Assembly (NCBI RefSeq): GCF_965641715.1
Contig: NZ_OZ282455.1
Strand: one strand, 5' to 3'
Origin: Escherichia coli
Lineage (GTDB): Bacteria > Pseudomonadota > Gammaproteobacteria > Enterobacterales > Enterobacteriaceae
DNA length: 64,000 nucleotides
The position numbers and the translations under genes are program-made. Positions 1,701 through 19,878 of the stretch are shown here, one piece after another. Each line of letters begins with the position of its first letter. The first letter of the stretch is position 1. The notes under the pieces are model-generated. The model saw nothing but the letters and a program-made list of their open reading frames with translations, did no database searches and was not told the DNA's origin.

Positions 1701-2384
1701 ATGTCCCGTTTTATCCAGGGTAACTGCGTGCGTGTTATGGCCACGTTTCCGGGCAATGCTGTCGATTTCATCCTTACCGACCCGCCATATCTCGTCGGTT
1801 TTCGTGACCGACAGGGGCGTACCATCGCCGGCGATAAAACCGATGAATGGCTGCAACCGGCCTGTAATGAAATGTACCGCGTACTCAAAAAAGACGCGTT
1901 AATGGTGAGCTTCTATGGCTGGAACCGCGTCGATCGCTTTATGGCCGCCTGGAAAAATGCGGGATTCAGCGTGGTTGGCCACCTGGTCTTCACCAAAAAC
2001 TACACATCGAAGGCCGCATATGTGGGCTATCGCCACGAATGCGCCTACATCCTGGCAAAAGGCCGTCCACGTCTGCCACAAAACCCGCTGCCGGACGTGC
2101 TGGGCTGGAAATATTCAGGCAATCGCCATCACCCGACGGAAAAGCCCGTTACCAGCCTGCAACCGCTGATTGAGAGCTTCACACACCCGAACGCAATTGT
2201 GCTGGACCCGTTTGCAGGCAGCGGCTCAACCTGCGTCGCCGCCCTCCAGTCCGGACGCCGGTATATCGGTATCGAGCTGCTTGAGCAGTATCACCGTGTC
2301 GGGCAGCAACGCCTTGCCGCCGTGCAACGGGCCATGCAGCAGGGGGCCGCGAATGATGACTGGTTTATGCCGGAGGCTGCGTAA
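1701..2384 (+). CDS. orphan DNA amino-methyltransferase (N6-adenine/N4-cytosine class)
   Basis: DPPY catalytic motif near N-terminus and FAGSGST SAM-binding motif near C-terminus; no restriction endonuclease gene adjacent. Confidence 0.85.
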   Translation: MSRFIQGNCVRVMATFPGNAVDFILTDPPYLVGFRDRQGRTIAGDKTDEWLQPACNEMYRVLKKDALMVSFYGWNRVDRFMAAWKNAGFSVVGHLVFTKNYTSKAAYVGYRHECAYILAKGRPRLPQNPLPDVLGWKYSGNRHHPTEKPVTSLQPLIESFTHPNAIVLDPFAGSGSTCVAALQSGRRYIGIELLEQYHRVGQQRLAAVQRAMQQGAANDDWFMPEAA

Positions 2385-2606
2385 ATGAACTATGCCGGAC
2401 ACGAAAAACTTCGCGCCGAAGTGGCGGAGGTGGCCAATGCCATGTGTGACCTGCGTACAACCATGAATGAGATGGAGCGGCGGTACAGCTTTAATGCTGA
2501 CACCCTGCCGGAACGTCTGGTGCGTCAGACGTTGTTTCGCGCAAACCGCCTCCTGATGGAGGCATATACCGAAATTCTTGAACTGGATGCGTGCTTCAAA
2601 GATTAA
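2385..2606 (+). CDS. hypothetical protein (73 aa)
   Basis: Track ORF; start overlaps stop of methyltransferase gene (TAAATG), suggesting translational coupling. Confidence 0.45.
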   Translation: MNYAGHEKLRAEVAEVANAMCDLRTTMNEMERRYSFNADTLPERLVRQTLFRANRLLMEAYTEILELDACFKD

Positions 2607-2618
2607 GGAGGAGACGAA

Positions 2619-3053
2619 ATGTACGGAACATGCGAAACGCTCTGCCGTGAGCTGGCAGCAAAGTATCCGGGAAACACGCCGCTGATGCTGCTTATCTGGT
2701 CCCCGGAAGAGATTCAGGCACTGGCCGACGGTATGGAAATTTCTCTGACCGATCATGAAATCAGGACTGTCCTGGCGCACCTGGAGGACATCCCGGAAGA
2801 CCAGCGGACTGAGTCCGGTATTTCTTCCGCCGCGGCGATGGAGATTATCAGCAACGTGAGCGAAAACCGCCTGGTGACCGTCCCTGCTGAACTGCTGGCG
2901 TCCCTGATTCAGACCGCTGAACAGGCACTGTGGAAACGTGAATGGGCCGCCCGTGATAACGGCCTTGCCGTCCCGGAATGTGTTACCCGCCGTCAGGCAG
3001 TGATTAATCAGGCCCGCACCCTGCTGAAAAACAACACACACGAAAACAACTGA
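2619..3053 (+). CDS. hypothetical protein (144 aa), paralog of 4762..5184
   Basis: Track ORF with AGGAGG-like SD; shares SLTD.E..TV...L.D and VTVPA motifs with ORF 4762..5184. Confidence 0.6.
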
Positions 3054-3103
3054 TGTTATCGCCGCCTGCCCTGCGGGCGGCGATACAGGGAGAACGCTTA
3101 ATC

Positions 3104-3874
3104 ATGAACAAAACGCTGAATGCACTGGTTTGTCGTCACGCCCGTAACCTGCTGCTGGCGCAGGGCTGGCCGGAAGAGACGGATGTTGACCAGCGAAATC
3201 CGAACTATCCGGGCTGGATCAGCATTTACGTGCGGCTGGATGCGCCCCGGCTGGCGACGTTACTTATCAACCGTCACGGCGGCGTACTGCCGCCGCTCCT
3301 GGCCTCCGCCATTCAGAGACTGACCGGAACCGGGGCGGAACTGGTACTGTCCGGCAGTCAGTGGCAATCGCTGCCGGTACTTCCGGCAGACGGAACGCAG
3401 GTGTCTTTCCCGTATGCCGGAGAATGGCTGACCGAAGACGAAATCAGGGCTGTTCTTGATGCGGTGCACGATGCGGTACGAAGCATCTGTTACCAGGTGG
3501 CAGACGATGCGCGGCGTATCCGTGCGGCGCTGACCACCACCGGTCAGACGTTGCTGACCCGCCAGACGCGCCGCTTTCGCCTGGTCGTGAAGGAAAGCGA
3601 TCACCCCTGCTGGCTCGATGAAGATGACGAAAACCTGCCCGTGGTGCTCGATGCCATCGTGAACCGGGGAGCACGTTTTTCGTCGGTGGAAATGTACCTG
3701 GTCAGCGATTGTATTGAGCATATCCTGTCCAGTGGGCTGGCCTGCGATGTGCTGCGTATACCTGATGAATCGCCCCGCCGCTGGTTTGACCGTGGTGTTC
3801 TGCGGGAGGTGGTCCGGGAAGCCCGGACCGAAATCCGCAGCATGGCGGATGCCCTGGCAAAAATCCGGAAATGA
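3104..3874 (+). CDS. hypothetical protein (256 aa)
   Basis: Track ORF 3053..3874; ATG at 3104 follows a stem-loop (3056..3082) and a GGGAGA SD-like sequence. Confidence 0.55.
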
Positions 3875-5411: not shown

Positions 5412-6125
5412 AAAACCCCTGGCAGGCTGACGCCTGCCGGAAATGCGGGGTGCAGCGCCTGCGGCGCTGCCGGCCCGGCTTTCCGGTCAGAAGGTAGTGT
5501 ATGGCTGTATGCAGGGAACAGGTGTGATATTCCGTGACACTGTCACTGTTTCTGGCTGTCTTTTATTGCGCCCACTTCGGCTCCCGGCTGCCTGGCGGCA
5601 TCCGGTCGTCAGGCCCGACTCCGACAGGCAGCTGCTGGCGCACCCGCCAGTCTCCGCCGAACCCGCTGGCGCGGTTTCGGGCTGCCGCTACGGTCCGATG
5701 CGTGAAAACCCGGCTTGCAGCGACCGTTCCGGTCGCGCCGCCCCTGTCGCGCCGTGACCTGCGCTCCCTGCACACCTGACGGTGTGTGAGGAAACTGCGC
5801 CTGATGGCGCAGCAGTCTTCCCTCCTGCCGCCACCCCTGCGGCCTGTTTCCCGCTGTGGACTTTCCGGGGGGCAGACGTAACCCCCTCCCGTTCCATCTG
5901 TCCAGGGTGAGATGCACCGGCCACAAAATTTTTAGCCATGAACCCGGCTAAAAATTTTGCGTCCGCCCCCGGACAGCTGTCCCGTGAGGCGGTAAACGGG
6001 CCCCCATCGGAAAGGTCCACTGCGGGGAGAAACCCCTGTGAAGTGGACGGCAGGAGGAGCTTTCGCTCCTCTGAAGGGGCACATGAACGTCCCGTCGCCG
6101 GTATCCGGTTTATCTCACATCTTTC
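5412..6125. repeat. dispersed leading-region repeat, family B copy 1 (candidate ssDNA promoter / Frpo-ssi-like element)
   Basis: About 700 nt highly similar to 11782..12445; 3' part (about 5745..6125) also shared with 14961..15315; contains AT-rich palindrome CAAAATTTTTAGCC-N9-GGCTAAAAATTTTG; ends at ssb SD. Confidence 0.7.
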
Positions 6126-8976: not shown

Positions 8977-9030
8977 TGAACAACCACACCGCCCCGCCGG
9001 AGACGGGGCGGCAGCAAGGGAGATACCGTG

Positions 9031-9465
9031 ATGAAAACTGAACTGACCCTGAATGCCCTGCAGTCCATGAACGCACAGGAATATGAAGATATCCGTGCTG
9101 CGGGAAGCGATATGCGCCGTAATCTCACTCACGAGGTGATGCGTGAAGTGGACGCACCGGCTAACTGGATGATGAATGGCGAGTATGGCAGTGAGTTCGG
9201 GGGCTTTTTCCCCGTCCAGGTTCGTTTCACGCCAGCCCACGAACGTTTCCACCTGGCATTATGTTCGCCGGGAGACGTCTCTCAGCTCTGGATGCTGGTT
9301 CTGGTGAATTGTGGTGGACAGCCTTTCGCCGTCGTTCAGGTGCAACATATCTTCACGCCTGTCGCTATCAGTCACACGCTGGCGCTTGCCGCGACACTTG
9401 ATGCGCAGGGGTACAGTGTTAACGACATCATCCATATCCTGATGGCAGAAGGAGGTCAGGCATGA
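9031..9465 (+). CDS. psiB: plasmid SOS inhibition protein PsiB
   Basis: About 144 aa; [27 protein letters not shown]... matches PsiB as I recall it. Confidence 0.95.
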
Positions 9466-10181
9466 GCGCACGTTCACGGGCACTGATCCCCCTCAGCGCA
9501 GAGCAACAGGCCGCCATGCAGGCTGTGGCTGTCACCGAACAACGTCGTCGTCAGGGACGCACACTTTCAGCATGGCCTTATGCCAGCGCTTTCTTTCGCT
9601 GCCTGAATGGCAGTCGCCGGATTTCGCTGACCGATCTCCGCTTTTTTGCTCCTGCGCTGACGAAGGAGGAATTTCATGGCAACCGTCTCCTGTGGCTGGC
9701 TGCCGTGGATAAACTGATTGAAAGTTTTGGTGAAGTCTGTGTTCTTCCCCTGCCATCCGATGCGGGGCATCGTCTGTTCCCGTCCGTTCCTTTTCGTGAA
9801 GGTGAGCGGCGTCGTCAGAAAACCACGCTGACAGAGCAGAAATACAGCCGCCAGCGGGAACGTGAGGCAGAACGACGGGAACTGGAATACCAGACATGTT
9901 TTGCTCAGGCGCAGATTGACCTTGCGTTTCATACTCCCGCCACGGTCGGAAGCTGGTTGTCCCGCTGGTCTGGTGTTGTTGAGGAGCATGATCTGGAAAC
10001 GATTTTCTGGGGGTGGTGCGGGCGTTTTCCATCACTGTCATCATTTGACCGGTTTTTCTGGCAGGAGGAACCACTCTGGCGGCTGATTTTTGAAGCCGGT
10101 GAGGCCGGTCGTGGTGCACCGGTACAGGTACGTGCACTTGAGCAGTGGATGATCCCGAACAAGCTGGAGAACGCAATATGA
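9462..10181 (+). CDS. psiA: plasmid SOS inhibition protein PsiA
   Basis: 239 aa, start overlaps psiB stop; matches PsiA as I recall it. Confidence 0.9.
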
Positions 10182-10774
10182 TGAAATCAGACGAACAATA
10201 TCACGTTCCCGTGTGGATGCGACCTCTGTTGCCGTTGCTCTGCAATACCGGTGGTAATGATCCGGAGGAACTGCTGAATGATACAGAAACCACCGCCAGT
10301 GCGAATATTGTCCGTTATGTACTGATAGTTGCAGTGCGGTCGCAGATTGATCTGCTGCAGCTACTGTACAGGAAAGGACTGTTGCGCACAGAGATACCAG
10401 GTGGCTTTTCACCGGAAGAAGCGCAGGAACTCCTGGATAATCTGGTGCGCAGCCATATCAGCAAGGCGCTGTCGGGTGAGCGAATGGCAGCCCGTGACAG
10501 AAATGCCGATCTGACCTGGATTCGCCAGCAACTGGTCGATGCCGCCTGGTTTGTCCGTGCCACACTGGAAGCGCATGGGATGGGCGTCGGAAATGAGAGT
10601 CCCTCTGCTCCGCCGGAGACAATGCCGGACATACAGACACGGGAACTGGTTATGTTGATCAAGCGACTGGCATCATCGCTGAAAGCGGTGAAACCCGACA
10701 GTAGCGTGGTGCGTGAAGCGCAGGACTGGCTGTGCGACAGAAAACTTGTGGATATCACAGATATTCTCCGGTGA
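10178..10774 (+). CDS. hypothetical protein (198 aa)
   Basis: Track ORF 10145..10774; ATG at 10178 overlaps psiA stop. Confidence 0.55.
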   Translation: MMKSDEQYHVPVWMRPLLPLLCNTGGNDPEELLNDTETTASANIVRYVLIVAVRSQIDLLQLLYRKGLLRTEIPGGFSPEEAQELLDNLVRSHISKALSGERMAARDRNADLTWIRQQLVDAAWFVRATLEAHGMGVGNESPSAPPETMPDIQTRELVMLIKRLASSLKAVKPDSSVVREAQDWLCDRKLVDITDILR

Positions 10775-10877
10775 ACCAGACATGTATATTTTACGCAGGG
10801 ACACGCCGATCATGATCGTTTCATATCAGGGGTGGTCTGGAGGTCATGCGGCGTGTCCTCTGCACTCGCCGGAATAA

Positions 10878-11218
10878 GGAAGTCGCCGGCGGCTCCGCTT
10901 TTACCCGGCCATGCGGGGCATGGCCTTGTGGGTTTTCAGCTCTGTGGCCTCAGCGTCGTGTGCGGGCTGTGCCGTGCCTCCATCTTAGCCGGGCTGGCAG
11001 GGATGCAAGGGTACGCTTCGCCGCTGCGGTCACCCGGTCCCTCCTTCCCGTCTGCCGTGATTTTCCGGTCGTTCACCCGCTCAGATTTCGCGGTCTCACC
11101 CTCCAACTCCCGCCAGCCGTGTGCGTCAGGCTGCGGCTTCCCTTGCGCCCTGTGCATCCCCGCCTTATCGCCCGGCTTTTATGGAGGCACGGCACCGCCC
11201 GGTGCCGCAGAACATGTG
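10878..11218. repeat. dispersed leading-region repeat, family A copy 2 (candidate ssDNA promoter / ssi element)
   Basis: Near-identical to 3933..4270; ends about 18 nt before ardA start. Confidence 0.7.
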
Positions 11219-11236
11219 ACTATGGAGGATTCGGGA

Positions 11237-11737
11237 ATGTCTGTTGTTGCACCTGCTGTATACGTTGGAACCTGGCACAAATACAACTGTGGAAGTATCG
11301 CCGGACGCTGGTTTGACCTGACCACGTTTGATGATGAGCGCGACTTTTTCGCCGCCTGCCGTGCTCTTCACCAGGATGAAGCCGATCCTGAACTGATGTT
11401 TCAGGATTATGAGGGATTCCCGGGGAATATGGCCTCTGAATGCCATATCAACTGGGCCTGGGTTGAAGGCTTCCGCCGGGCACGGGATGAAGGCTGCGAA
11501 GAGGCTTATCGTCTCTGGGTGGATGATACCGGTGAGACGGATTTTGACACCTTCCGCGATGCCTGGTGGGGCGAGGCTGACAGTGAGTAGGCTTTTGCGG
11601 TTGAGTTCGTCAGTGATACCGGCCTGCTGGCTGACGTGCCGGAGACGGTGGCGCTCTATTTTGACTATGAGGCGTATGCGCGGGATTTATTCCTGGACTC
11701 CTTCACCTTTATTGACGGTCATGTGTTCCGTCGGTGA
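11237..11737 (+). pseudogene. ardA: ArdA antirestriction gene interrupted by in-frame TAG at codon 118
   Basis: [20 protein letters not shown]... matches ArdA; reading frame stops at TAG 11588..11590 (…GEADSE*) and resumes in frame with the ArdA C-terminus (AFAVEFVSDTGLLADVPETVALYFDYEAYARD…RR*) to TGA 11735..11737. Confidence 0.85.
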
Positions 11738-11781
11738 TTTACTCCCCCGCTCCGGCGGGGGTATGGCCTGCCAGGCCGCCG

Positions 11782-12445
11782 GAAAACCCTGGCAGGCTTA
11801 CGCCTGCCTGAAATGCAGGAGGGCCGCGCCTGCGGCGCTGCCCTTCCTGCCCGTCATGGTGTGAGGCATTTTTCTGTTATGTCGTTTCTGTTGTTCTGAT
11901 TTCCGGAGGCGGGGACACCTTCGGCTCCCGGCTGCCTGGCGGCATCCGGTCGTCAGGCCCGACTCCGACAGGCAGCTGCTGGCGCACCCGCCAGTCTCCG
12001 CCGAACCCGCTGGCGCGGTTTCGGGCTGCCGCTACGGTCCGATGTCTGAAAAACCAGGCTTGCAGCGACCGTTCCGGTCGCGCCGCCCCTGTCGCGCCGG
12101 AAACGGCGCTCCCTGCACACCTGACGGTGTGTAAGGCCACTGCGCCTGATGGCGCAGTCAACCCTTCCGCCGCCACCCCTGCGGCCTGTTTCCCGCTGTG
12201 GACTTTCCGGGGGCTGGAGTAACCACATCCCGTTTCAGCAGTCTAGGGGAAGATATACCGTCCACAAAATTTTTAGCCATAAACCCGGCAAAAAATTTTG
12301 CGTCCGCCCCCGGACAGCTGCCCCGTGACGTGGTGACGGACGCCCCATCGGAAAGGTCCACTGCGGGGAGAAACCCCGAAGAAGTGGACGGCAGAAGGGG
12401 CTTTCGCCCCTCCGGGGAGCAACCGGTCGGCCCGGCGACCTGATT
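11782..12445. repeat. dispersed leading-region repeat, family B copy 2
   Basis: Similar to 5412..6125 over about 660 nt; ends at SD of ORF 12466. Confidence 0.7.
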
Positions 12446-12465
12446 CAGCAGAAGGAGACGTTTTC

Positions 12466-12900
12466 ATGACAGTCAGCAGCACGATTTCCGTTTTTTGCCG
12501 CGACGGGGTGTTCCGTACCGTTTACTGCCACCTGCACGGGGAGCCGACCTGGAACGGTCGCATCCTGCATACCCACTATGCCACCGGTCAGCAGGCCGAA
12601 GCCCTGGTTGAACACGGTGATATCCGTTGCCTCGGTCCCCGTTGCGACAAACCCGCCGGGCATACGCTTCAGAACCCGGTGGACGGTGTGACGGCTTATT
12701 ACGGACGTGACAGTGGTTTCCGGATGGACAGTGAGGCGCGTGAGTACCGTTCTTTCAGGGAGGCTATTGCCACTGAAAGCACTGAAGAGGTGCGCTTCCA
12801 TTATGTGTTCATCGACGGCTACTGGAAGGTGATGTACCGCACGCCGGAAGGCTGGAAGATGAAAGCGCTCGCGCTGGCACTGCGTCGCTGTCCGAAATGA
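12466..12900 (+). CDS. hypothetical protein (144 aa)
   Basis: Track ORF with GAAGGAGA SD; immediately downstream of family B repeat; hairpin after stop. Confidence 0.6.
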   Translation: MTVSSTISVFCRDGVFRTVYCHLHGEPTWNGRILHTHYATGQQAEALVEHGDIRCLGPRCDKPAGHTLQNPVDGVTAYYGRDSGFRMDSEAREYRSFREAIATESTEEVRFHYVFIDGYWKVMYRTPEGWKMKALALALRRCPK

Positions 12901-12993
12901 AAAAAAGGCAGGGCGATAAACCCTGCCTCTCTCCGCCGGCGCTTCCCCGCCAGGAAGTCCGGCATCTCAATCACTATCTATGGAGATTATGCC

Positions 12994-13260
12994 ATGAGAC
13001 CATCAATTATCTTCGCAACCGCCGAGTATGTAAAGCGTCTGCGTGAAGAGTGCCTGCGGGAGAATAAACCCCTGCACCGCCATACCCGCTTCAGACGTCA
13101 GGAGCTGGCACAGGATGAGATTAACCCGGACGTCCTGGCGATGAGCGGCCATATCGCCAGACGCTGCAGTGAGCAGAAGCGGGTGCGTATCCCCGCTATG
13201 AAAGTCAGCGAATGGGGCCACCTGCTCCGCGCGCTTGAAATTGAGCGGGTCTGCCACTGA
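12994..13260 (+). CDS. hypothetical protein (88 aa)
   Basis: Track ORF with GGAG SD. Confidence 0.5.
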   Translation: MRPSIIFATAEYVKRLREECLRENKPLHRHTRFRRQELAQDEINPDVLAMSGHIARRCSEQKRVRIPAMKVSEWGHLLRALEIERVCH

Positions 13261-13324
13261 TTAACCCTTGCCGTCTGCCTGTGCAGGCGGCAGGATACGT
13301 TCAGACATCTCACCAGGAGGAACC

Positions 13325-14251
13325 GTGAGTAAGAAGAAAACCACCACGACGCCCACGCCGCATGATGCCGCGTTCCGGTCGTTCCTGGCGAATCCCGACG
13401 TCGCCAGAGATTTTCTGGAACTGCATCTTCCGGCGGAGTACCGGCAGTTGTGCGACCTGTCCACGCTGAAGCTGGAACCCGCCACCTTTGTTGAGCCGGA
13501 CCTGCATCAGTACGCCAGCGATATCCTCTGGAGTGTGAAAACCACCGGGGGTGAAGATGGCTATGTTTATACGCTCATCGAGCACCAGAGCACCGAAAAT
13601 CTGTACATGCCTTTCCGCATGTTACGTTACAGTGTGGCGGCGATGCAGAGACATCTGGAGCAGCACAAAACGTTGCCACTGGTCATTCCGGTGCTGTTCT
13701 ATCACGGTGAGCGCAGCCCGTACCCGTACAGCATGAACTGGCTGGACTGTTTTGAGAATCCGGCGCTTGCGGCTAAAATATACACAAAGCCGTTTCCGCT
13801 GGTTGATATCACTGTCGTTGATGACAATGAAATCATGAACCATCGCCGGATGGCCGCACTGACGCTGCTGATGAAGCATATCCGCCATCGTGACATGATG
13901 GAGCTGCTGGACAAACTCCCGCAGGTCATGGTGGAAATTTCAGACGAGCAGGTGCGTGTTCTGATTCATTACATCGTTAACGCAGGGGACTCTGTATCAC
14001 CGGAATTTATGCGGGCGCTGGCTGAGCGTCTGCCGCAGCATGAGGATAAACTGATGACTATCGCAGAACGTCTTGAGCAAAAAGGTCGCCAGGAAGGCAG
14101 GATGGAAGGACGCATGGAAGGACGCATGGAAGGAGCGCTTGAAAAAGCCCTGGCTATTGCGTGCCAGCTTCAGAAAATGGGGATGACGCCGGAGCAGATT
14201 AAGCAGGCTACCGGACTTTCCGATGACGAACTGAAGAAAATCACTCACTGA
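13325..14251 (+). CDS. Rpn-family recombination-promoting nuclease (YhgA-like, PD-(D/E)xK)
   Basis: Track ORF 13268..14251; GTG at 13325 after CAGGAGG; YhgA-like N-terminal region; C-terminal tandem GRMEGRMEGRMEG repeat (about 14096..14134). Confidence 0.75.
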   Translation: MSKKKTTTTPTPHDAAFRSFLANPDVARDFLELHLPAEYRQLCDLSTLKLEPATFVEPDLHQYASDILWSVKTTGGEDGYVYTLIEHQSTENLYMPFRMLRYSVAAMQRHLEQHKTLPLVIPVLFYHGERSPYPYSMNWLDCFENPALAAKIYTKPFPLVDITVVDDNEIMNHRRMAALTLLMKHIRHRDMMELLDKLPQVMVEISDEQVRVLIHYIVNAGDSVSPEFMRALAERLPQHEDKLMTIAERLEQKGRQEGRMEGRMEGRMEGALEKALAIACQLQKMGMTPEQIKQATGLSDDELKKITH

Positions 14252-14262
14252 GTAAACATCAC

Positions 14263-14288
14263 AGCCCGGCAAAATGCCGGGCTTTTTT
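14263..14288 (+). terminator. Rho-independent terminator
   Basis: AGCCCGGC-aaaat-GCCGGGC followed by TTTTTT after Rpn stop. Confidence 0.6.
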
Positions 14289-14312
14289 GTCAGCAGGAGC
14301 AGAGCAAACAGC

Positions 14313-14471
14313 ATGACGATTGCAGAACGTCTTATTCAAAAAGGCGCACTTGAAGTGGCGCGGGAAATAGCCTGCCGGCTGCGGGATATGGGCTGGACGC
14401 CGGAACGGATTCAGGAGGCAACCGGACTTTCCGGTGAAGAACTGAAAAAGCTGTTTCCTGATGAGCAGTAG
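14313..14471 (+). CDS. small protein homologous to the Rpn C-terminal tail (RpnS/YpaA-like)
   Basis: 52 aa (MTIAERLIQKGALEVAREIACRL…) aligns with the last about 60 aa of the upstream Rpn protein but lacks the GRMEG repeats. Confidence 0.5.
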   Translation: MTIAERLIQKGALEVAREIACRLRDMGWTPERIQEATGLSGEELKKLFPDEQ

Positions 14472-14501
14472 CCTGGCATTCAGCCAGGCTGTGAATCACG
14501 C

Positions 14502-14753
14502 TCACACATCCTCTGCCGTTTCCCCCAGTTCATTTTCCAGTCGCCTGATGATATCTGCCTTACGCATCCCCTGCATGTGAGGCAGCAGGTCACGGACTGA
14601 AAGTGCCTGGGTGGTCCTCCAGACGGTGACGTCCACCTGTTCCGCATTTTCCCAGGCGTGCCATGTTCTCTGCGTCACGCCAAATTCTCTGGCCGCTTTT
14701 TCGCGTGACCAGAGCATGCTTTTTCGCCAGATTCGCAGTTCCCAGCCGGTCAT
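14502..14753 (-). CDS. small HTH DNA-binding protein (XRE/Cro-like candidate regulator)
   Basis: 83 aa; HTH-like segment SREKAAREFGVTQRTWHAWEN; AAGGTG SD; divergent from leading genes. Confidence 0.6.
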   Translation of the reverse strand: MTGWELRIWRKSMLWSREKAAREFGVTQRTWHAWENAEQVDVTVWRTTQALSVRDLLPHMQGMRKADIIRRLENELGETAEDV

Positions 14754-14767
14754 AAAACACCTTTAAA

Positions 14768-14788
14768 AAAGTGAAAAAACTTCACTTT
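14768..14788. promoter_or_regulatory. operator-like palindrome AAAGTGAA-N5-TTCACTTT (site 1)
   Basis: Perfect 8-bp inverted repeat about 15 nt upstream of the HTH gene start. Confidence 0.5.
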
Positions 14789-14834
14789 ATTTTATCATCA
14801 TAATCACCAAATTAACGCGATAAATAAGTGTGAA

Positions 14835-14855
14835 AAAGTGAAGAAATTTCACTTT
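14835..14855. promoter_or_regulatory. operator-like palindrome AAAGTGAA-N5-TTCACTTT (site 2)
   Basis: Second identical palindrome 67 bp from site 1 in an AT-rich divergent promoter region. Confidence 0.5.
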
Positions 14856-14960
14856 TTTTGCTTGTAAATGTCGTGCGGTTTTCTCTGTTTTCACCTGTGC
14901 GGGAGTGGTGTGCCAGTGACCACCACATGCCATTGTTGTGCCGTCGTTTTTCTTCAGTCG

Positions 14961-15315
14961 CGCCGTATGCGGCGCTCCCTGCACACCTTACGGTGTGTAA
15001 GGCCACTGCGCCTGATGGCGCAGCTGTCTCTGCCTGTCTGCCGCCGCACTGCGGCCTGTTCTCCGCAGACGGACTTTCCGGGGGTACATACATGACCACA
15101 TCCCGTTTCAGTCGTCCAGGGGAGAGATGTACCAGCCACAAAACTTTTTGCCGCAGGCGTCAAAAACTTTTGCGTCTGCCCCCGGACAACTGCCCCGTGA
15201 CGTGGTGAGCGTCCCCCGTCGGAAAGGTCCACTGCGGGGAAATCCCCGAAGACCCGGACGGCAGAAGGAGCTTCGCTCCTCCGGGAAATGACCTGGCTGA
15301 CCCGGCAGTCGTGAC
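14961..15315. repeat. dispersed leading-region repeat, family B copy 3 (3' unit only)
   Basis: Matches only the 3' about 355 nt of copies 1 and 2; ends at SD of ORF 15330. Confidence 0.65.
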
Positions 15316-15329
15316 GATGAGGAGACAAT

Positions 15330-16181
15330 GTGATGAATCAGACTTTACCCACTGCTGACCTGAATACTGCCGGCACGACAGATGTTATTCCGTCTGTGGC
15401 TATCGACCGCATCATCGCGCAGCGTAACGAAGGTATTGCACTGTTCATGCAGGCGATGGAATGCCTGGCGACAGCGCGCAAGATTCTGCTCGATGCGTCA
15501 GGTGATATTTTTCTTTACGGGTTTGAAGACTGCGTGACTGATTCCGTTCGTCGCATAGATAAACCGGAAGAAGCGAAAAGGAATATCACCCGTCTTGCCG
15601 ACCGGAAAATCTGGGATCGCCTGATGACAGATACGGGCATGTACACCTTCATGAGTTCATGCCAGCGTGATGAGTGGAACAGCCAGCTGATGAGCGACAC
15701 CTGTCCTGAAATCACCCTGGACAATGTACTGGCAACATTCCGCCATCTGAATGCCTGCAAGATGCAGACATTTGAACAGGGACTGATTGATGTCTACCGG
15801 AAATTGTCATGGGATTACAGAACCAATAATCCCTGCCGTCTGGGTAAGAAAATCATTATTGAAAACCTGCTGTACCGCTGGAGTAACGGGCGTGTGACGC
15901 TGGACTGCAGCGGACGGGAGGCACTGGATGACCTGGTACGTCCGTTTTATCTGCTGGAGGGGCGCAACGTTCCTGACTTCAGGAACAGTATCGGGGCGCA
16001 GTATGGTGAATTTCTCGGGAACGGCGACAATGTCGGTAAGCTGTTAGAAGGGGAATATTTTACGGTGCGTGGCTACCAGAAAGGGACCGTACACATTGTC
16101 TTTAAGCGTTCTGACCTTGTTGAAAAACTGAATGATATTATTGCACGGCATTATCCAGGTGCATTGCCGCCACGAGTCTGA
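15330..16181 (+). CDS. hypothetical protein (283 aa), oriT-proximal leading gene
   Basis: Track ORF with GAGGAGA SD; hairpin plus T-run after stop. Confidence 0.6.
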   Translation: MMNQTLPTADLNTAGTTDVIPSVAIDRIIAQRNEGIALFMQAMECLATARKILLDASGDIFLYGFEDCVTDSVRRIDKPEEAKRNITRLADRKIWDRLMTDTGMYTFMSSCQRDEWNSQLMSDTCPEITLDNVLATFRHLNACKMQTFEQGLIDVYRKLSWDYRTNNPCRLGKKIIIENLLYRWSNGRVTLDCSGREALDDLVRPFYLLEGRNVPDFRNSIGAQYGEFLGNGDNVGKLLEGEYFTVRGYQKGTVHIVFKRSDLVEKLNDIIARHYPGALPPRV

Positions 16182-16266
16182 TTAAACAGAAAAGCCCTGG
16201 TATTTATGCCGGGGCTTTTTTTTCTGTAATCATCATAATCTCAGAACACGATGTGACATTGTCACA

Positions 16267-16602
16267 TCAATTGTTGTTCATATCGATGCCATCTTTCCTG
16301 CCTGAATCTGTCTTTTTAGGTGCTGTTTTAGAGGAAGAACGGCGGGATGGTTTTTTCGATTCTGCTTCCCGAATAATGTCACGAAGTGCCTTCTCTCCTA
16401 CTTCATACCCTGCATTTTTGAGCGTGTCACGAACATCTGCCAGTGTATAACCCTTTGTCCTTACCAGGACAATAATGTCATCACGAATGGCATCAAGAAA
16501 ATCACGCAATGTTTTCCGTTGAGCGGTGAGATCTGGCAATTCCGATAAAGCAGCTTTTGCCAGCTGGATGTCATCATCTGAGTAAAATTTTTTAGAAGCC
16601 AT
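16267..16602 (-). CDS. hypothetical small protein with basic C-terminal tail (111 aa)
   Basis: Track ORF 16267..16608 (GTG); ATG at 16602 with GGAGAG SD; tail SKKPSRRSSSKTAPKKTDSGRKDG suggests nucleic-acid binding. Confidence 0.5.
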   Translation of the reverse strand: MASKKFYSDDDIQLAKAALSELPDLTAQRKTLRDFLDAIRDDIIVLVRTKGYTLADVRDTLKNAGYEVGEKALRDIIREAESKKPSRRSSSKTAPKKTDSGRKDGIDMNNN

Positions 16603-16660
16603 TGGCACTTTCTCTCCGTTTCATGTTGAAGTCTGATTTTATCATCAAAAACTGACTCCT

Positions 16661-16791
16661 GGCAGGGCTGCGCCCTGCCTCTGCCGTCTGCATAAGACTA
16701 TGATGCACAAAAATAACAGGCTATAATGGCCTGAAAAACGGGACAGGATGTGCAATTGTAATACCGTCACACGCGACGCTATTACAATTGC
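16661..16791 (-). other. oriT: oriT (origin of transfer) with predicted nic site on the - strand
   Basis: 12-bp inverted repeat GCAATTGTAATA / TATTACAATTGC (16752..16763, 16780..16791); on the - strand the repeat is followed by ACATCCTG then TCCC, matching the IncP-type nick consensus ATCCTG|Y, which places the nick between + coordinates 16744/16743, 8 nt from the repeat; second palindrome GGCAGGGCTGCGCCCTGCC at 16661..16679; directly upstream of nikA. Confidence 0.7.
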
Positions 16792-16835
16792 CATCTGGTC
16801 AGGGCTTCGCCCCGACACCCCGTAAGGAGCCTGAA

Positions 16836-17168
16836 GTGAGTGATAGTGCGGTAAGAAAGAAAAGTGAGGTACGGCAAAAGACAGTTGTCAGGACACTCAG
16901 ATTCTCTCCTGTTGAGGATGAAACCATCAGGAAAAAAGCTGAAGATTCCGGACTTACTGTATCTGCTTACATCCGAAATGCAGCACTGAATAAGCGAATT
17001 AACTCCCGTACAGATGATGCTTTTCTGAAGGAGTTAATGAGACTGGGAAGGATGCAGAAGCATCTGTTTGTTCAGGGAAAAAGAACCGGTGACAAGGAAT
17101 ACGCAGAAGTGCTTGTTGCCATAACCGAACTTACAAATACATTGCGTAAACAGTTAATGGAAGGTTGA
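16836..17168 (+). CDS. nikA: relaxosome accessory protein NikA
   Basis: Track ORF 16788..17168; GTG at 16836 after AAGGAG gives 110 aa; adjacent to oriT and nikB. Confidence 0.85.
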   Translation: MSDSAVRKKSEVRQKTVVRTLRFSPVEDETIRKKAEDSGLTVSAYIRNAALNKRINSRTDDAFLKELMRLGRMQKHLFVQGKRTGDKEYAEVLVAITELTNTLRKQLMEG

Positions 17169-17178
17169 GGATTCTCCG

Positions 17179-19878
17179 GTGAATGCAGTCATTCCAAAAA
17201 AGAGAAGGGACGGCAAGTCTTCGTTCGAAGACCTGGTATCCTACGTCTCTGTCCGGGATGACATGACCGATGAGGAACTGGATTTATCTTCTTCTTCGCA
17301 GGCTGAACAACCGCACCGAAGCCGTTTCAGTCGCCTTGTTGATTATGCGACACGTCTTCGAAATGAGTCATTCGTGGCGCTGGTTGATGTCATGAAGGAC
17401 GGCTGCGAATGGGTCAACTTTTATGGTGTCACCTGCTTTCATAACTGTACTTCTCTTGAAACTGCCGCTGCAGATATGGAGTACATTGCCCGGCAGGCAC
17501 ACTATGCAAAAGATGACACTGATCCTGTTTTTCACTACATTCTTTCCTGGCAGTCACATGAAAGCCCGCGTCCGGAACAGATTTATGACAGTGTACGTCA
17601 TACGCTGAAATCACTCGGCCTTGCCGACCATCAGTATGTCTCTGCCGTGCATACTGATACAGATAATCTGCACGTCCATGTGGCTGTTAACCGGGTACAC
17701 CCTGAAACGGGTTATCTGAACCGGTTATCCTGGAGTCAGGAAAAACTCAGTCGTGCCTGCCGTGAGCTTGAACTGAAGCATGGTTTTGCTCCGGATAACG
17801 GTTGCTGGGTCCATGCACCGGGAAATCGTATCGTTCGCAAAACCGCCGTTGAACGTGATCGCCAGAACGCGTGGACACGCGGGAAAAAACAAACTTTTCG
17901 CGAGTATGTCGCGCAGACAGCGGTCGCTGGTTTACGCAGTGAACCTGTAAATGACTGGTTATCCCTGCATCGTCGTCTTGCGGAAGATGGTCTGTACCTG
18001 TCTCAGATGGACGGAAAATTTCTGGTGATGGATGGCTGGGATCGCAACAGGGAAGGTGTACAGCTTGACTCGTTTGGTCCCTCCTGGTGTGCAGAAAAAC
18101 TCATGAAAAAAATGGGTGACTACACGCCAGTACCAAAAGACATTTTCAGCCAGGTGGAAGCACCAGGACGCTATAATCCGCACTTCATTGCCGCTGATGT
18201 TCGCCCGGAAAAAATCGCTGAAACAGAAAGTCTGCAGCAGTATGCCTGTCGTCATCTTGGAGAACGTCTGCCGGAAATGGCACGGGAAGGACGGCTGGAA
18301 AACTGCCAAGCTATTCACCGCACACTGGCTGAAGCGGGATTATGGATGCGTGTTCAGCATGGTCACCTGGTTATCTGTGACGGTTATGATCATAACCAGA
18401 CTCCCGTTCGTGCTGACAGCGTATGGTCGCTGCTGACGCTCGACAATGTGAATCAACTCGATGGTGGCTGGCAGCCTGTACCAACAGATATTTTCCGCCA
18501 GGTTACGCCAACAGAACGCTTCCGTGGTCGTCGTATGGAGAGCTGTCCTGCGACCGATAAAGAATGGCACCGTATGCGTACAGGCACGGGGCCGCAGGGG
18601 GCTATCAAACGCGAACTGTTTTCTGACAAAGAAAGTCTGTGGGGATACAGCATCAGCCATTGTAGCCCTCAGATTGAAGAAATGATCACACAGGGTGAGT
18701 TTACCTGGCAGCGTTGTCATGAGCTGTTTGCACAACAGGGACTGATGCTACAGAAACAACATCACGGGCTTGTTGTCGTTGATGCCTTTAATCATGAGCA
18801 AACGCCGGTGAAGGCCAGCAGCATTCATCCTGATCTGACACTGGGGCGTGCAGAGCCACAGGCCGGACCTTTTGTGAGTGCCCCAGCAGATTTGTTTGAC
18901 AGGGTGCAACCTGAAAGTCGCTATAACCCGGAGCTGGCTGTCAGTGACAGGTACGGGGTCAGCAGTAAACGTGACCCAATGCTGCGCCGGCAGCGACGTA
19001 AAGCCAGAGCTGAGGCCCGTGCTGACCTGCGTGCCCGCTATCTGGCATGGCGTGAACAATGGCGTAAACCAGATCTGCGTTATGGGGAACGTTGTCGGGA
19101 AATTCATCAGGCATGCCGTCTGCGGAAGTCACACATTCGTGCGCAGTACGATGATCCGGCATTACGTAAGCTGCATTATCACATTGCAGAAGTTCAGCGA
19201 ATGCAGGCATTGATCAGGCTGAAAGAAGACATCAGGGATGAGCGACAGAAACTTATTGCTGACGGGAAGTGGTATCCACCCTCTTACCGTCAGTGGGTCG
19301 AAACTCAGGCTGCTCAGGGAGACAGGGCTGCTGTATCGCAGCTGAGAGGCTGGGATTATCGCGATCGCCGTAAAGACAGGTCACGCACAACGACGACAGA
19401 CCGCTGTGTCGTGCTTTGTGAACCGGGCGGAACGCCGGTATACGGTAATACCGGTGATCTCGAGGCCCGTCTGCAGAAGAACGGGAGTGTTCGTTTCCGT
19501 GACCGTCGGACGGGAGAGTTTGTCTGTACGGATTATGGTGACAGGGTTGTTTTCCGTAATCACCATGACCGCAATGCGCTGGCAGATAAACTGGATTTGA
19601 TTGCACCGGTATTATTCGGGCGTGATCCTCGCATGGGTTTTGAACCAGAAGGAAACGACAAACAATTTAACCAGGTCTTTGCTGAAATGGTTGCCTGGCA
19701 TAATGTGACAGGCCGTACCGGTCACGAAGACTACAGGATTACGCGACCGGACGTGGATCATCACCGTGAAGGAAGTGAACGCTACTACCGCGATTATATC
19801 GCGGCGAACAGCAACGATGACGCATCACTGCCTCCGCCGGAGCAGGATAAACGCTGGGAACCGCCTTCTCCAGGTTAA
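17179..19878 (+). CDS. nikB: relaxase NikB (MOBP family)
   Basis: 899 aa; histidine triad HTDTDNLHVHVAVN typical of relaxases. Confidence 0.95.
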   Translation: MNAVIPKKRRDGKSSFEDLVSYVSVRDDMTDEELDLSSSSQAEQPHRSRFSRLVDYATRLRNESFVALVDVMKDGCEWVNFYGVTCFHNCTSLETAAADMEYIARQAHYAKDDTDPVFHYILSWQSHESPRPEQIYDSVRHTLKSLGLADHQYVSAVHTDTDNLHVHVAVNRVHPETGYLNRLSWSQEKLSRACRELELKHGFAPDNGCWVHAPGNRIVRKTAVERDRQNAWTRGKKQTFREYVAQTAVAGLRSEPVNDWLSLHRRLAEDGLYLSQMDGKFLVMDGWDRNREGVQLDSFGPSWCAEKLMKKMGDYTPVPKDIFSQVEAPGRYNPHFIAADVRPEKIAETESLQQYACRHLGERLPEMAREGRLENCQAIHRTLAEAGLWMRVQHGHLVICDGYDHNQTPVRADSVWSLLTLDNVNQLDGGWQPVPTDIFRQVTPTERFRGRRMESCPATDKEWHRMRTGTGPQGAIKRELFSDKESLWGYSISHCSPQIEEMITQGEFTWQRCHELFAQQGLMLQKQHHGLVVVDAFNHEQTPVKASSIHPDLTLGRAEPQAGPFVSAPADLFDRVQPESRYNPELAVSDRYGVSSKRDPMLRRQRRKARAEARADLRARYLAWREQWRKPDLRYGERCREIHQACRLRKSHIRAQYDDPALRKLHYHIAEVQRMQALIRLKEDIRDERQKLIADGKWYPPSYRQWVETQAAQGDRAAVSQLRGWDYRDRRKDRSRTTTTDRCVVLCEPGGTPVYGNTGDLEARLQKNGSVRFRDRRTGEFVCTDYGDRVVFRNHHDRNALADKLDLIAPVLFGRDPRMGFEPEGNDKQFNQVFAEMVAWHNVTGRTGHEDYRITRPDVDHHREGSERYYRDYIAANSNDDASLPPPEQDKRWEPPSPG

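What the first reader, a model, noticed from the sequence alone, without database searches (positions are those of the whole stretch)
13325..14471. Rpn-family nuclease followed by a free-standing copy of its own C-terminal tail (candidate toxin/antitoxin-like or phage-defence pair)
ORF 13325..14251 looks like an Rpn/YhgA-type PD-(D/E)xK protein with a C-terminal tandem GRMEG repeat. After an intrinsic terminator, a 52-aa ORF (14313..14471) is homologous to the last about 60 aa of the Rpn protein. Chromosomal Rpn genes are reported to be accompanied by or to internally encode small tail proteins that counteract the nuclease. An Rpn pair in a plasmid leading region could serve defence, recombination or addiction.
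Basis: partly seen in the sequence, partly recalled or inferred. Interest (0 to 1): 0.65.

Follow-up and report, generated by a model that had tools for sequence, protein, structure and literature searches.

The report
Plasmid Rpn nuclease plus spare tail
This is the already described plasmid gene rpnP2, a toxic DNA-cutting defence protein that makes its own antidote from an internal start site, followed by a separate, diverged copy of the antidote tail whose role is still untested.

Summary
13325-14251 encodes a 308-aa Rpn/YhgA nuclease (PF04754 E=2e-78) with four 4-residue repeats. After a strong terminator, a 52-aa ORF (14313-14471) matches Rpn residues 244-306 (E=8e-16).

The locus is not new. 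Its promoter and N-terminal region are 397/399 identical to the rpnP2 gene block of Zhong et al. 2023 (PNAS). They showed that RpnL is a toxic endonuclease neutralised by RpnS, made from an internal start (here ATG 14054, M244). They also showed that RpnP2 protects against T-even phages, and they describe downstream free copies ('RpnSs', e.g. K-12 ypaA).

What I add:
- In 21 IncI-complex plasmids the free copy is a separate tail family with its own F-x-x-G repeats (0-5). These do not track the attached tail in type or number.
- It shows purifying selection.
- The published non-toxic RpnP2 construct lacked it.
- Fusion alleles (16 records) and two-cassette alleles (7 records) look like reciprocal products of crossover in one 12-nt box.

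So the real toxin/antitoxin pair lies inside the large ORF, and the small ORF is probably a displaced, orphan tail cassette. This is a known system of low-to-moderate interest.

The parts
13325..14251 (+). rpnL (allele of plasmid rpnP2; called ygdB in one IncI record): 308-aa Rpn/YhgA PD-(D/E)xK DNA endonuclease, the toxin. GTG start with AGGAGG at 13315-13320.
   Evidence: PF04754 E=2.3e-78. TIGR01784 180 bits. 13025-13423 is 397/399 identical to the RpnP2 gBlock AO591. D14, D66, E86 and Q88 are intact.
13752..13779 (+). Promoter-like site inside rpn (TTGAGA-16-TAAAAT). It is a candidate for the short internal transcript that gives excess RpnS. This is weak evidence only.
   Evidence: Consensus scan, 10/12 matches. 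Internal transcription start sites are reported for all E. coli rpn genes (PMC10400941).
14054..14251 (+). Intragenic RpnS: a 65-aa tail protein made from the internal start M244 (GAGGA at 14042-14046). It is the predicted cognate antitoxin.
   Evidence: Read from the sequence. The same RBS and ATG were mutated to make RpnP2L* (oligo AO714). RpnA and RpnE also start at M244. A profile of the tails hits PDB 7th0 (RpnA small protein) at E=3e-9.
14087..14134 (+). Hypervariable block of four 12-nt (4-residue) repeats: RQEG RMEG RMEG RMEG.
   Evidence: The copy number of this tail family ranges from 0 to 5 in other plasmids.
14263..14289 (+). Intrinsic terminator (9-bp stem, T6) between rpn and the free tail gene.
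   Evidence: -18.2 kcal/mol. A compensatory A-T to G-C change at the base of the stem is seen among alleles.
14313..14471 (+). RpnSs: a free-standing 52-aa tail gene of family 'type 3', here with zero repeats. AGGAG lies at 14295-14299, 13 nt before the ATG.
   Evidence: E=8e-16 to Rpn residues 244-306. Intact in the 20 sampled loci that have a free type-3 tail gene; truncated by an insertion in L009 and fused to rpn in L010. pN/pS is 0.28. Leader and SD are conserved in all alleles.
14313..14333 (+). Conserved 21-nt box ATGACnATnGCAGAACGTCTT, also present at 14054-14074. The 12-nt core GCAGAACGTCTT is the crossover point in both fusion and two-cassette alleles.
   Evidence: junction sequences of L010, L017, L018. 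(repeat family D8).
14470..14490 (+). Second hairpin, homologous to the terminator stem. It closes the duplicated unit and lies between the convergent RpnSs and HTH genes.
   Evidence: -17.5 kcal/mol.
12000..12449 (-). Context: an ssi/Frpo class-1-like element. On the transferred (minus) strand it folds into a large hairpin. It lies upstream of orf144-orf88-rpn.
   Evidence: Three copies in the window: 5656-6071, 12000-12449 and 14957-15285. DNA fold z=-8.6. ssi1-3 act as ssDNA promoters in IncI1 pESBL (PMC12672017).

Best explanation
The locus is the rpnP2-type Rpn toxin-antitoxin/antiphage gene of IncI-complex conjugative plasmids.

Shown elsewhere for a near-identical allele and for RpnA-C:
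- The full-length product RpnL is a Mg-dependent, largely sequence-nonspecific DNA endonuclease that is toxic on its own.
- The same reading frame is also translated from an internal start at M244 to give RpnS. RpnS is a three-helix tail protein that binds the identical tail of RpnL in an L2S2 complex and blocks cleavage.
- Loss of that block during infection lowers phage burst size.

Inferred here: the free 52-aa gene behind the terminator is not the partner of this RpnL.
- It is a displaced tail cassette of another specificity family.
- It was created, and is occasionally re-fused or stacked, by unequal crossover in the 12-nt box GCAGAACGTCTT that opens every tail.
- It is kept as an intact gene. 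Most likely it encodes an orphan antitoxin-type protein that binds only tails of its own family and repeat number, and it is made at a low level by terminator read-through.
For: Identity:
- PF04754 and TIGR01784 matches.
- 397/399 identity to the RpnP2 gBlock.
- D14, D66, E86 and Q88 are intact. These are the four residues changed in the RpnP2 active-site mutant, and they equal RpnA D11/D63/E82/Q84, whose mutation abolishes activity.
- The internal RBS and ATG are conserved at the site mutated in RpnP2L*.

Mechanism comes from PMC10400941.

The free copy is not cognate:
- 68% core identity and 0 vs 4 repeats.
- Near-identical type-3 alleles sit next to attached tails of type 1, 2 or 4. Repeat numbers are equal in 1 of 21 loci, and rho=-0.2 for 19 of them.
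- A one-repeat mismatch abolishes neutralisation in RpnC.
- The RpnP2LS construct ends in codon 13 of the small ORF, yet is non-toxic and protective.

Cassette model:
- Fusion alleles have the Rpn N-domain joined to a type-3 tail with no free gene. There are 16 such records.
- Two-cassette alleles carry a free type-1 tail that is 153/162 nt identical to the attached tail of the window, followed by the type-3 gene. There are 7 such records.
- Both kinds have their junction in the same 12-nt box.
- Mosaics join different linkers and tails.

Still a gene:
- pN/pS is 0.28, and 8 of 17 polymorphic sites are nonsynonymous against 76% expected, p=0.01.
- It is present together with the rpn tail in about 2000 plasmid records: 2007 records cover at least 80% of a query spanning both. 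About 2040 records hold the whole locus.
Against: - No expression data exist for the small ORF on any plasmid.
- It follows a strong terminator, and no promoter-like site was found for it.
- The SD spacing is long, at 13 nt.
- The specificity rule (matching repeat number) was tested only for RpnC. It has not been tested across tail families, so cross-binding to this RpnL or RpnS is not excluded.
- Purifying selection rests on few substitutions from related plasmids.
- Changes in 12-nt repeat number keep the frame automatically, so they are not evidence of selection.
- The window's tail allele (type 1) differs from the tested ECOR13 allele (type 2). Toxicity and defence are therefore extrapolated for the C-terminal ~110 residues.
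Confidence: 0.65

Rival explanations
1. The small ORF is a second, cognate antitoxin of the adjacent nuclease. It would give extra or differently regulated neutralisation of RpnL.
For: - It is homologous to the tail.
- It is adjacent to rpn in about 2000 plasmids.
- The K-12 precedent ypaA/RpnESs is synthesised (PMC10400941), and it also differs from RpnE by one repeat.
- The shared ends MTIAERL and TGLS..ELKK might suffice for binding.
Against: - It has 0 repeats against 4 and belongs to a different tail family.
- It does not co-vary with the attached tail in 21 loci.
- A one-repeat mismatch abolishes RpnC neutralisation.
- RpnAS and RpnBS do not cross-protect.
- RpnP2LS without it is non-toxic.
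Confidence: 0.18
2. The small ORF is a functionless by-product of unequal crossover. It would be an untranslated relic that persists only because the plasmids are young and clonal.
For: - Terminator directly upstream, no own promoter, and 13-nt SD spacing.
- ypaA is annotated as a pseudogene in K-12.
- It is dispensable in the published assays.
- It is lost without obvious cost in fusion alleles and in a blaCTX-M-55 insertion allele.
Against: - pN/pS is 0.28, with p=0.01 for a deficit of nonsynonymous sites.
- The ORF, its SD and its leader are intact in the 20 sampled loci that have a free type-3 tail gene. These come from IncI1, IncK, IncB/O, IncZ and pESI-like backbones with up to about 8% synonymous divergence.
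- It has its own diversified repeat units (FDEG/FKEG/FKQG/FKKG/FEKG), as functional RpnS proteins do.
Confidence: 0.15
3. The module mainly serves plasmid maintenance (post-segregational killing) or RecA-independent recombination of incoming DNA, rather than phage defence.
For: - Toxin-antitoxin behaviour is established.
- Overexpressed Rpn proteins raise RecA-independent recombination in conjugal crosses (PMC5350276).
- The locus sits about 2.5 kb from oriT, downstream of an ssDNA-promoter-like element.
Against: [quoted passage not shown]
- RpnS appears to be released rather than degraded, which is unlike a classical addiction antitoxin.
- There are no data on plasmid stability.
Confidence: 0.1
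4. The large ORF is a transposase of a mobile element, as the Pfam name 'Transposase_31' suggests.
For: Only the Pfam and NCBIfam names ('putative transposase', 'ISNCY family transposase').
Against: - The gene holds the same position, between the same neighbours, in about 2000 plasmids.
- Only one copy is present in the 64-kb window.
- No terminal inverted repeats flank it.
- Zhong et al. conclude that rpn genes do not encode conventional transposases (section heading).
Confidence: 0.02

Closest known systems
RpnP2 (RpnP2L/RpnP2S) of the E. coli ECOR13 plasmid, Zhong et al. 2023, PNAS 120:e2307382120
   Same: It is the same locus.
- The 300-bp upstream region plus the start of the gene is 397/399 identical.
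- The N-terminal nuclease domain and the four active-site residues are the same.
- The internal RBS and ATG are the same.
- The same type-3 free tail gene lies downstream in ECOR13-like alleles.
   Different: - The C-terminal ~110 residues here belong to another allele family. The window has type 1 with RQEG/RMEG repeats, whereas the tested allele has type 2 with IQQG repeats.
- The free tail here has no repeats.
- The published constructs did not include an intact free tail gene.
rpnE-ypaA (RpnESs) of E. coli K-12, and rpnC-rpnCSs
   Same: - The layout is the same: an Rpn gene with an internal start at M244, followed on the same strand by a separate small gene homologous to the tail.
- The repeat number differs between the two copies (PMC10400941).
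   Different: - In K-12 the spacer is 12 nt with a strong SD and no terminator. Here it is 61 nt with a terminator.
- The K-12 pair is 75% identical. Here identity is 52% overall and 68% in the core.
- RpnE is annotated as inactive.
- The plasmid locus shows 0, 1 or 2 free cassettes.
RpnA/RpnAS (crystal structure PDB 7TH0)
   Same: A profile of the tail proteins, including the free ORF, hits 7th0_A at E=3e-9. The repeats begin 11 residues after the Met, which is within the first helix as described.
   Different: The sequence is distant: a full-length phmmer search finds no PDB entry. RpnA in K-12 has no repeat expansion.
Orphan antitoxins and toxin-antitoxin genes enriched in plasmid leading regions (Samuel et al. 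2024, Nature 635:186)
   Same: A toxin-antitoxin gene and an apparently orphan antitoxin-like gene sit on the T-strand orientation, within about 3 kb of oriT, next to ardA/psiB/ssb and Frpo/ssi elements.
   Different: That paper does not mention Rpn (0 occurrences). An anti-defence role for this small ORF is conjecture.

Membership tests
Rpn / YhgA-like recombination-promoting nucleases (RpnL) | Transposase_31 (PF04754) domain; TIGR01784 score above the curated cutoff | tested here: met
   PF04754 at residues 11-207, E=2.3e-78. TIGR01784 scores 180.4 bits against a cutoff of 52.1.
Rpn / YhgA-like recombination-promoting nucleases (RpnL) | PD-(D/E)xK-type active-site residues equivalent to RpnA D11, D63, E82 and Q84 | tested here: met
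   D14, D66, E86 and Q88 are present. These are exactly the positions changed in the RpnP2 active-site mutant gBlock AO730. The RpnA mutants lose all phenotypes (PMC5350276).
Rpn / YhgA-like recombination-promoting nucleases (RpnL) | DNA endonuclease activity and toxicity of RpnL alone | not testable with these tools
   Shown for ECOR13 RpnP2L*, whose N-terminal domain is near-identical. Not shown for this tail allele.
RpnS intragenic antitoxin | In-frame internal start codon with an RBS at the beginning of the C-terminal tail | tested here: met
   ATG 14054 (M244) with GAGGA 7 nt upstream. The homologous RBS and ATG were mutated to make RpnP2L*. RpnA and RpnE also start at M244.
RpnS intragenic antitoxin | Hypervariable four-residue repeats starting 8-20 residues after the initiating Met | tested here: met
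   The repeats start at residue 12 of RpnS. The tail of the window's family has 0-5 copies in other plasmids.
RpnS intragenic antitoxin | Homology to the solved three-helix RpnAS protein | tested here: met
   A profile of seven tails hits 7th0_A at E=3.1e-9 in one stretch. No structure was modelled.
RpnS intragenic antitoxin | Translated separately, and blocks RpnL | not testable with these tools
   Needs tagging or ribosome profiling, plus co-expression assays.
RpnSs (free-standing downstream tail gene, e.g. ypaA) | A separate ORF on the same strand just downstream of rpn, homologous to the RpnS tail | tested here: met
   14313-14471, E=8e-16. The ORF is conserved in 20 of the 23 sampled IncI-complex loci (window included). 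The exceptions are L009, L010 and L018 (cut from the same array as L017), of which L009 is truncated and L010 is fused.
RpnSs (free-standing downstream tail gene, e.g. ypaA) | Own variation in four-residue repeat number between strains | tested here: met
   F[DKE][EQK]G units in 0-5 copies.
RpnSs (free-standing downstream tail gene, e.g. ypaA) | Clusters with the RpnS of its own upstream gene (origin by local duplication) | tested here: inconclusive
   Among the tails compared, it is closest to type 1, the window's attached tail, at 68%. However, the same free gene also sits behind type-2 and type-4 tails.
RpnSs (free-standing downstream tail gene, e.g. ypaA) | The protein is synthesised | not testable with these tools
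   Shown only for K-12 YpaA.
DUF4351 (PF14261), the Pfam family under which separate RpnS genes are filed in some species | Significant match to PF14261 | tested here: not met
   Pfam scans of the 65-aa and 68-aa forms give no PF14261 hit. Many homologues carry a precomputed PF27070.1, which is absent from the library used.
Classical type II toxin-antitoxin operon | Toxin and antitoxin encoded by two adjacent, co-transcribed genes | tested here: not met
   The predicted cognate antitoxin lies inside the toxin gene. The adjacent small gene is separated from it by a terminator and is of another tail family.

The most novel reading that the evidence does not exclude
The free tail genes behind plasmid rpnP2 form a small recombining cassette array of 0, 1 or 2 cassettes. 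The nuclease swaps its oligomerisation/specificity tail by crossover in a 12-nt box. This would make the array a homologous-recombination-based way of diversifying a defence nuclease.

The retained free tail, delivered in the leading region, would act as an orphan antitoxin. It would disarm Rpn nucleases carrying the same tail on resident rival IncI-complex plasmids, or serve as a decoy for a phage factor that targets tails.
Probability: 0.12. Interest if true: 0.6.

Novelty: already known. Interest (0 to 1): 0.28.

Why it matters
The system carries a toxic nuclease and its in-gene antidote on very common resistance plasmids. The free tail sequence is present in 1340 of 5426 complete E. coli genomes, almost always on plasmids. 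It can therefore shape phage sensitivity of clinical strains.

The basic biology is already published, so the finding itself is ordinary.

The modest added value is twofold. First, the free tail gene is an independent, selectively maintained cassette that does not match its neighbour. Second, attached and free tails interconvert at a defined 12-nt box. This gives a concrete, testable handle on how Rpn tail diversity arises and on what RpnSs proteins are for.

Tried and rejected
- Rfam scan of 9000-18000 at E<=0.1 gave no hit.
- PADLOC-DB v2 found no model for either ORF. That library predates the Rpn work, so absence means nothing.
- A full-length phmmer search against PDB gave no hit. Only the profile of tails found 7th0. 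That profile's top hits, to designed PPR proteins and IcmE/DotG, are summed weak repeat matches and were discarded.
- Pfam on the small ORF gave nothing significant except a repeat-driven Yae1_N match.
- I considered that the small protein disarms chromosomal Rpn nucleases of recipients. I rejected this as the main reading because the type-3 tail is plasmid-restricted, with 30 of 2645 places on chromosomes.
- I considered that repeat numbers of free and attached tails are kept unequal. I rejected this: they were equal in 0 of 19 loci at first, then 1 of 21, against about 2.4 expected.
- I looked for early-conjugation expression data for rpn in pESBL, but no supplement is held.
- I did not attempt a linked-chain structure prediction of RpnS with RpnSs, because the tool reports no interface measure.
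- The PGAP start at 14274 was rejected because it lies in the terminator loop.
Full report
OBSERVATION

The large ORF runs from GTG 13325 to TGA 14251 and encodes 308 aa, with AGGAGG at 13315-13320. It matches Pfam PF04754 (Transposase_31, YhgA-like) over residues 11-207 with E=2.3e-78. It also matches NCBIfam TIGR01784 'Rpn family recombination-promoting nuclease/putative transposase' at 180 bits against a cutoff of 52.

The C-terminal part contains RQEG-RMEG-RMEG-RMEG, four 12-nt units at 14087-14134. A 9-bp, G+C-rich hairpin at 14263-14283 followed by T6 is a textbook intrinsic terminator (-18.2 kcal/mol, z=-5.4).

The 52-aa ORF at 14313-14471 aligns to Rpn residues 244-306 with E=8e-16. 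Its single 16-residue gap is exactly the repeat block. The DNA identity is 75-84%. The duplicated unit starts about 20 nt before the ATG and ends with a homologous hairpin at 14470-14490.

CONTEXT

The 2-kb region is 100% identical to E. coli plasmid pRKI3099a (typed IncI-gamma/K1 by MOB-suite, MOBP, MPF_I). It is present in 2039 plasmid records, 1903 of them conjugative.

The gene order is ssb, psiB, psiA, ardA, orf144, orf88, rpn, small ORF, a convergent HTH gene, DUF4942, then nikA/nikB. All leading-region genes point towards oriT.

An element of about 330-450 nt occurs three times, at 5656-6071, 12000-12449 and 14957-15285. On the transferred strand the middle copy folds into a large hairpin (z=-8.6). 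These match the ssi1-3/Frpo class-1 single-stranded-DNA promoters described for IncI1 pESBL (PMC12672017). Whether rpn itself is induced early could not be checked.

WHAT IT IS

Zhong et al. 2023 (PMC10400941) established the system:
- Rpn genes are genes-within-genes.
- RpnL is a toxic endonuclease.
- RpnS, translated from an internal start, binds RpnL in an L2S2 complex and blocks it.
- The tail carries four-residue repeats whose number varies between strains and sets specificity.
- Plasmid-encoded RpnP2 from ECOR13 protects against T-even phages.

Their supplementary oligonucleotide table gives the RpnP2 gene block. It matches window 13025-13423 at 397 of 399 positions. The window therefore holds the rpnP2 locus itself.

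Their active-site mutant changes D14A, D66A, E86A and Q88K. The window protein has D, D, E and Q at those positions. These correspond to RpnA D11, D63, E82 and Q84, whose mutation abolishes recombination, toxicity and SOS induction (PMC5350276).

Their RpnP2L* mutant destroys a GAGGA-N7-ATG. That motif is conserved here at 14042-14056, giving M244. RpnA and RpnE also start their small proteins at M244. A profile of the tails hits the solved RpnA small protein, 7th0, at E=3e-9.

THE FREE-STANDING COPY

[quoted passage not shown] It names the downstream copies RpnSs (K-12 ypaA = RpnESs; RpnCSs). It also notes that such genes can be lost by deletion or by fusion to the rpn N-terminal domain.

In K-12, ypaA is 75% identical to RpnE residues 244-299 and has one extra repeat.

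WHAT A SURVEY OF 23 IncI-COMPLEX LOCI ADDS (analysed)

The 23 loci comprise the window plus 22 fetched plasmid loci.

- The attached tail comes in at least three families:
  - type 1, with RQEG/RMEG units in 0-5 copies, as in the window;
  - type 2, with IQQG units, as in ECOR13;
  - type 4, with IQKG/IQQG units and an RMEEK core.
- These attached tails are joined to two linker types in mosaic combinations.
- The free gene is a further family, type 3. Its sequence is MTIAERLIQKG-[F(D/K/E)(E/Q/K)G]n-ALEVAREIACRLRDMGWTPERIQEATGLSGEELKKLFPDEQ, with n=0-5.
- The type-3 core is 68% identical to type 1, 54% to type 2 and 45% to type 4.
- Nearly identical type-3 alleles follow type-1, type-2 and type-4 tails.
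- Repeat numbers of attached and free tails are equal in 1 of 21 loci. For 19 of them rho=-0.20, p=0.40.
- The window has 4 repeats in the attached tail and 0 in the free gene.

Adding a single repeat to RpnCS or RpnCL abolished neutralisation, and RpnAS and RpnBS do not cross-protect. The free protein is therefore predicted not to be the antitoxin of its neighbour.

Independent support comes from the RpnP2 gene block, which carried '101 bp downstream'. Its last 22 nt match exactly inside the free ORF of ECOR13-like alleles, ending in codon 13. The RpnP2LS construct that grew like the vector control and protected against phage therefore lacked an intact free tail gene.

IS THE SMALL ORF A GENE?

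- It is intact in the 20 sampled loci that have a free type-3 tail gene. One further locus has it cut by a blaCTX-M-55 insertion, and one has it fused to rpn.
- Its leader CAGCAGGAGCAGAG(C/A)AAACAG(C/T)ATG is conserved.
- In the 52 non-repeat codons pN/pS is 0.28. This compares with 0.18 for the attached type-1 tail and 0.06 for the N-domain.
- After correcting one codon that my script mislabelled, 8 of 17 polymorphic sites are nonsynonymous against 76% expected (p=0.01).
- Changes in 12-nt repeat number keep the frame automatically, so I do not count them as evidence.

Against expression: the terminator lies directly upstream, no promoter-like site was found between it and the ATG, and the SD spacing is 13 nt. 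Expression, if any, must come from read-through. The PGAP start at 14274 lies in the terminator loop and is almost certainly wrong.

ORIGIN AND DYNAMICS

Every tail, attached or free, opens with ATGACnATnGCAGAACGTCTT.

In fusion alleles (L010) the rpn-type upstream sequence and the rpn-type variant of the box are followed by type-3 sequence. Sixteen plasmid records carry this junction.

In IncK2/Z plasmids L017 and L018, rpn has a type-4 tail and is followed by two free genes. The first is a type-1 tail that is 153/162 nt identical to the attached tail of the window. It is preceded by the RpnSs-type leader and the RpnSs-type variant of the box. The second is the type-3 gene. Seven records carry that junction.

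These look like the two reciprocal products of unequal crossover within the 12-nt core GCAGAACGTCTT. They show that the same tail can exist either attached or free. Zhong et al. had speculated that RpnL may itself initiate such events.

DISTRIBUTION

The type-3 tail DNA occurs in 1340 of 5426 complete E. coli genomes, with 2615 places on plasmids and 30 on chromosomes. A role against chromosomal Rpn nucleases of recipients is therefore unlikely. Samuel et al. 2024 report toxin-antitoxin genes and orphan antitoxins enriched in leading regions but do not mention Rpn.

VERDICT

The finding is real and correctly recognised, but it is an already described system at an already studied locus. The toxin/antitoxin pair lies within the large ORF. 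The small ORF is best read as a displaced, selectively retained tail cassette of unknown, probably orphan, specificity.

Steps shown by others for a near-identical allele:
- nuclease toxicity;
- neutralisation by RpnS;
- phage protection.

Steps shown here:
- identity of the locus;
- intact catalytic and iTIS features;
- independence of the free and attached tails;
- purifying selection on the free ORF;
- crossover junctions in the 12-nt box.

Steps inferred:
- lack of cognate interaction between the free protein and this RpnL;
- expression by terminator read-through;
- any function of the free protein.

Noticed in passing
window 5656-6071, 12000-12449, 14957-15285: Three copies of a 330-450-nt element (81-89% identical) lie upstream of ssb, of orf144-orf88-rpn and of the DUF4942 gene. 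The transferred (minus) strand of the middle copy folds into a large hairpin (z=-8.6). They probably correspond to the ssi1-3/Frpo class-1 ssDNA promoters of IncI1 plasmids.
   Followed up: partly
window 10963-10994 and 11170-11201: A 32-nt inverted repeat (88% complementary, 175 nt apart) lies just upstream of ardA. It may be the 'class 2' ssDNA-promoter hairpin reported 5' of ardA and klcA in pESBL.
   Followed up: no
window 14765-14788 and 14835-14858 (upstream of the minus-strand HTH gene 14502-14753): Two copies of a ~20-bp palindrome, AAAGTGAAnAAAnTTCACTTT, lie 67 nt apart. They look like operators for the adjacent 83-aa XRE-type regulator. That regulator is constant in all IncI-complex loci and always sits 30 nt after the last tail gene, convergent with it.
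   Followed up: no
window 14274-14471 (annotated CDS in pRKI3099a and most records): The PGAP start codon of the small ORF (65-aa, 81-aa or 93-aa forms) lies within or upstream of the terminator hairpin. It translates the hairpin as 'PGKMPGFF'. Homology, the conserved SD and the iTIS parallel all point to ATG 14313 (52 aa). Newer RefSeq records name some copies 'RpnC/YadD family protein'.
   Followed up: partly
L009 (CP125015.1) 1899-3191: A blaCTX-M-55 unit is inserted inside the free tail gene after about codon 9. The HTH gene downstream is also missing from this locus.
   Followed up: partly
L017 (NZ_CP032880.1) 517-1944; L018 (NZ_CP080261.1) 1-1460; L010 (NZ_MZ152086.1) 946-1869: Two kinds of rearranged alleles exist. 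In the first, two free tail genes stand in tandem behind rpn, a type-1 tail followed by type 3. In the second, the Rpn N-domain is fused directly to the type-3 tail. Both junctions fall in the 12-nt box GCAGAACGTCTT.
   Followed up: yes
L024 (NZ_CP116068.1) 446-1360; L025 (NZ_CP141228.1) 319-1236: These are mosaic Rpn alleles. The same type-4 tail core (RMEEK...) is joined to the type-1 linker in one plasmid and to the type-2 linker in the other. Tails and linkers therefore recombine independently.
   Followed up: partly
proteins P0004, P0013, P0021, P0045 and others: Many free-tail proteins carry a precomputed Pfam family PF27070.1. It is absent from the Pfam-A copy available to profile_search, so its name and definition could not be read.
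   Followed up: no
L015 (NZ_CP033404.1) 1249-2199: Klebsiella IncF/IncR plasmids carry a different Rpn gene, 80% identical over only 200 nt. It has its own GIEKG/LQQG repeat tail, no free tail gene and no HTH neighbour.
   Followed up: no
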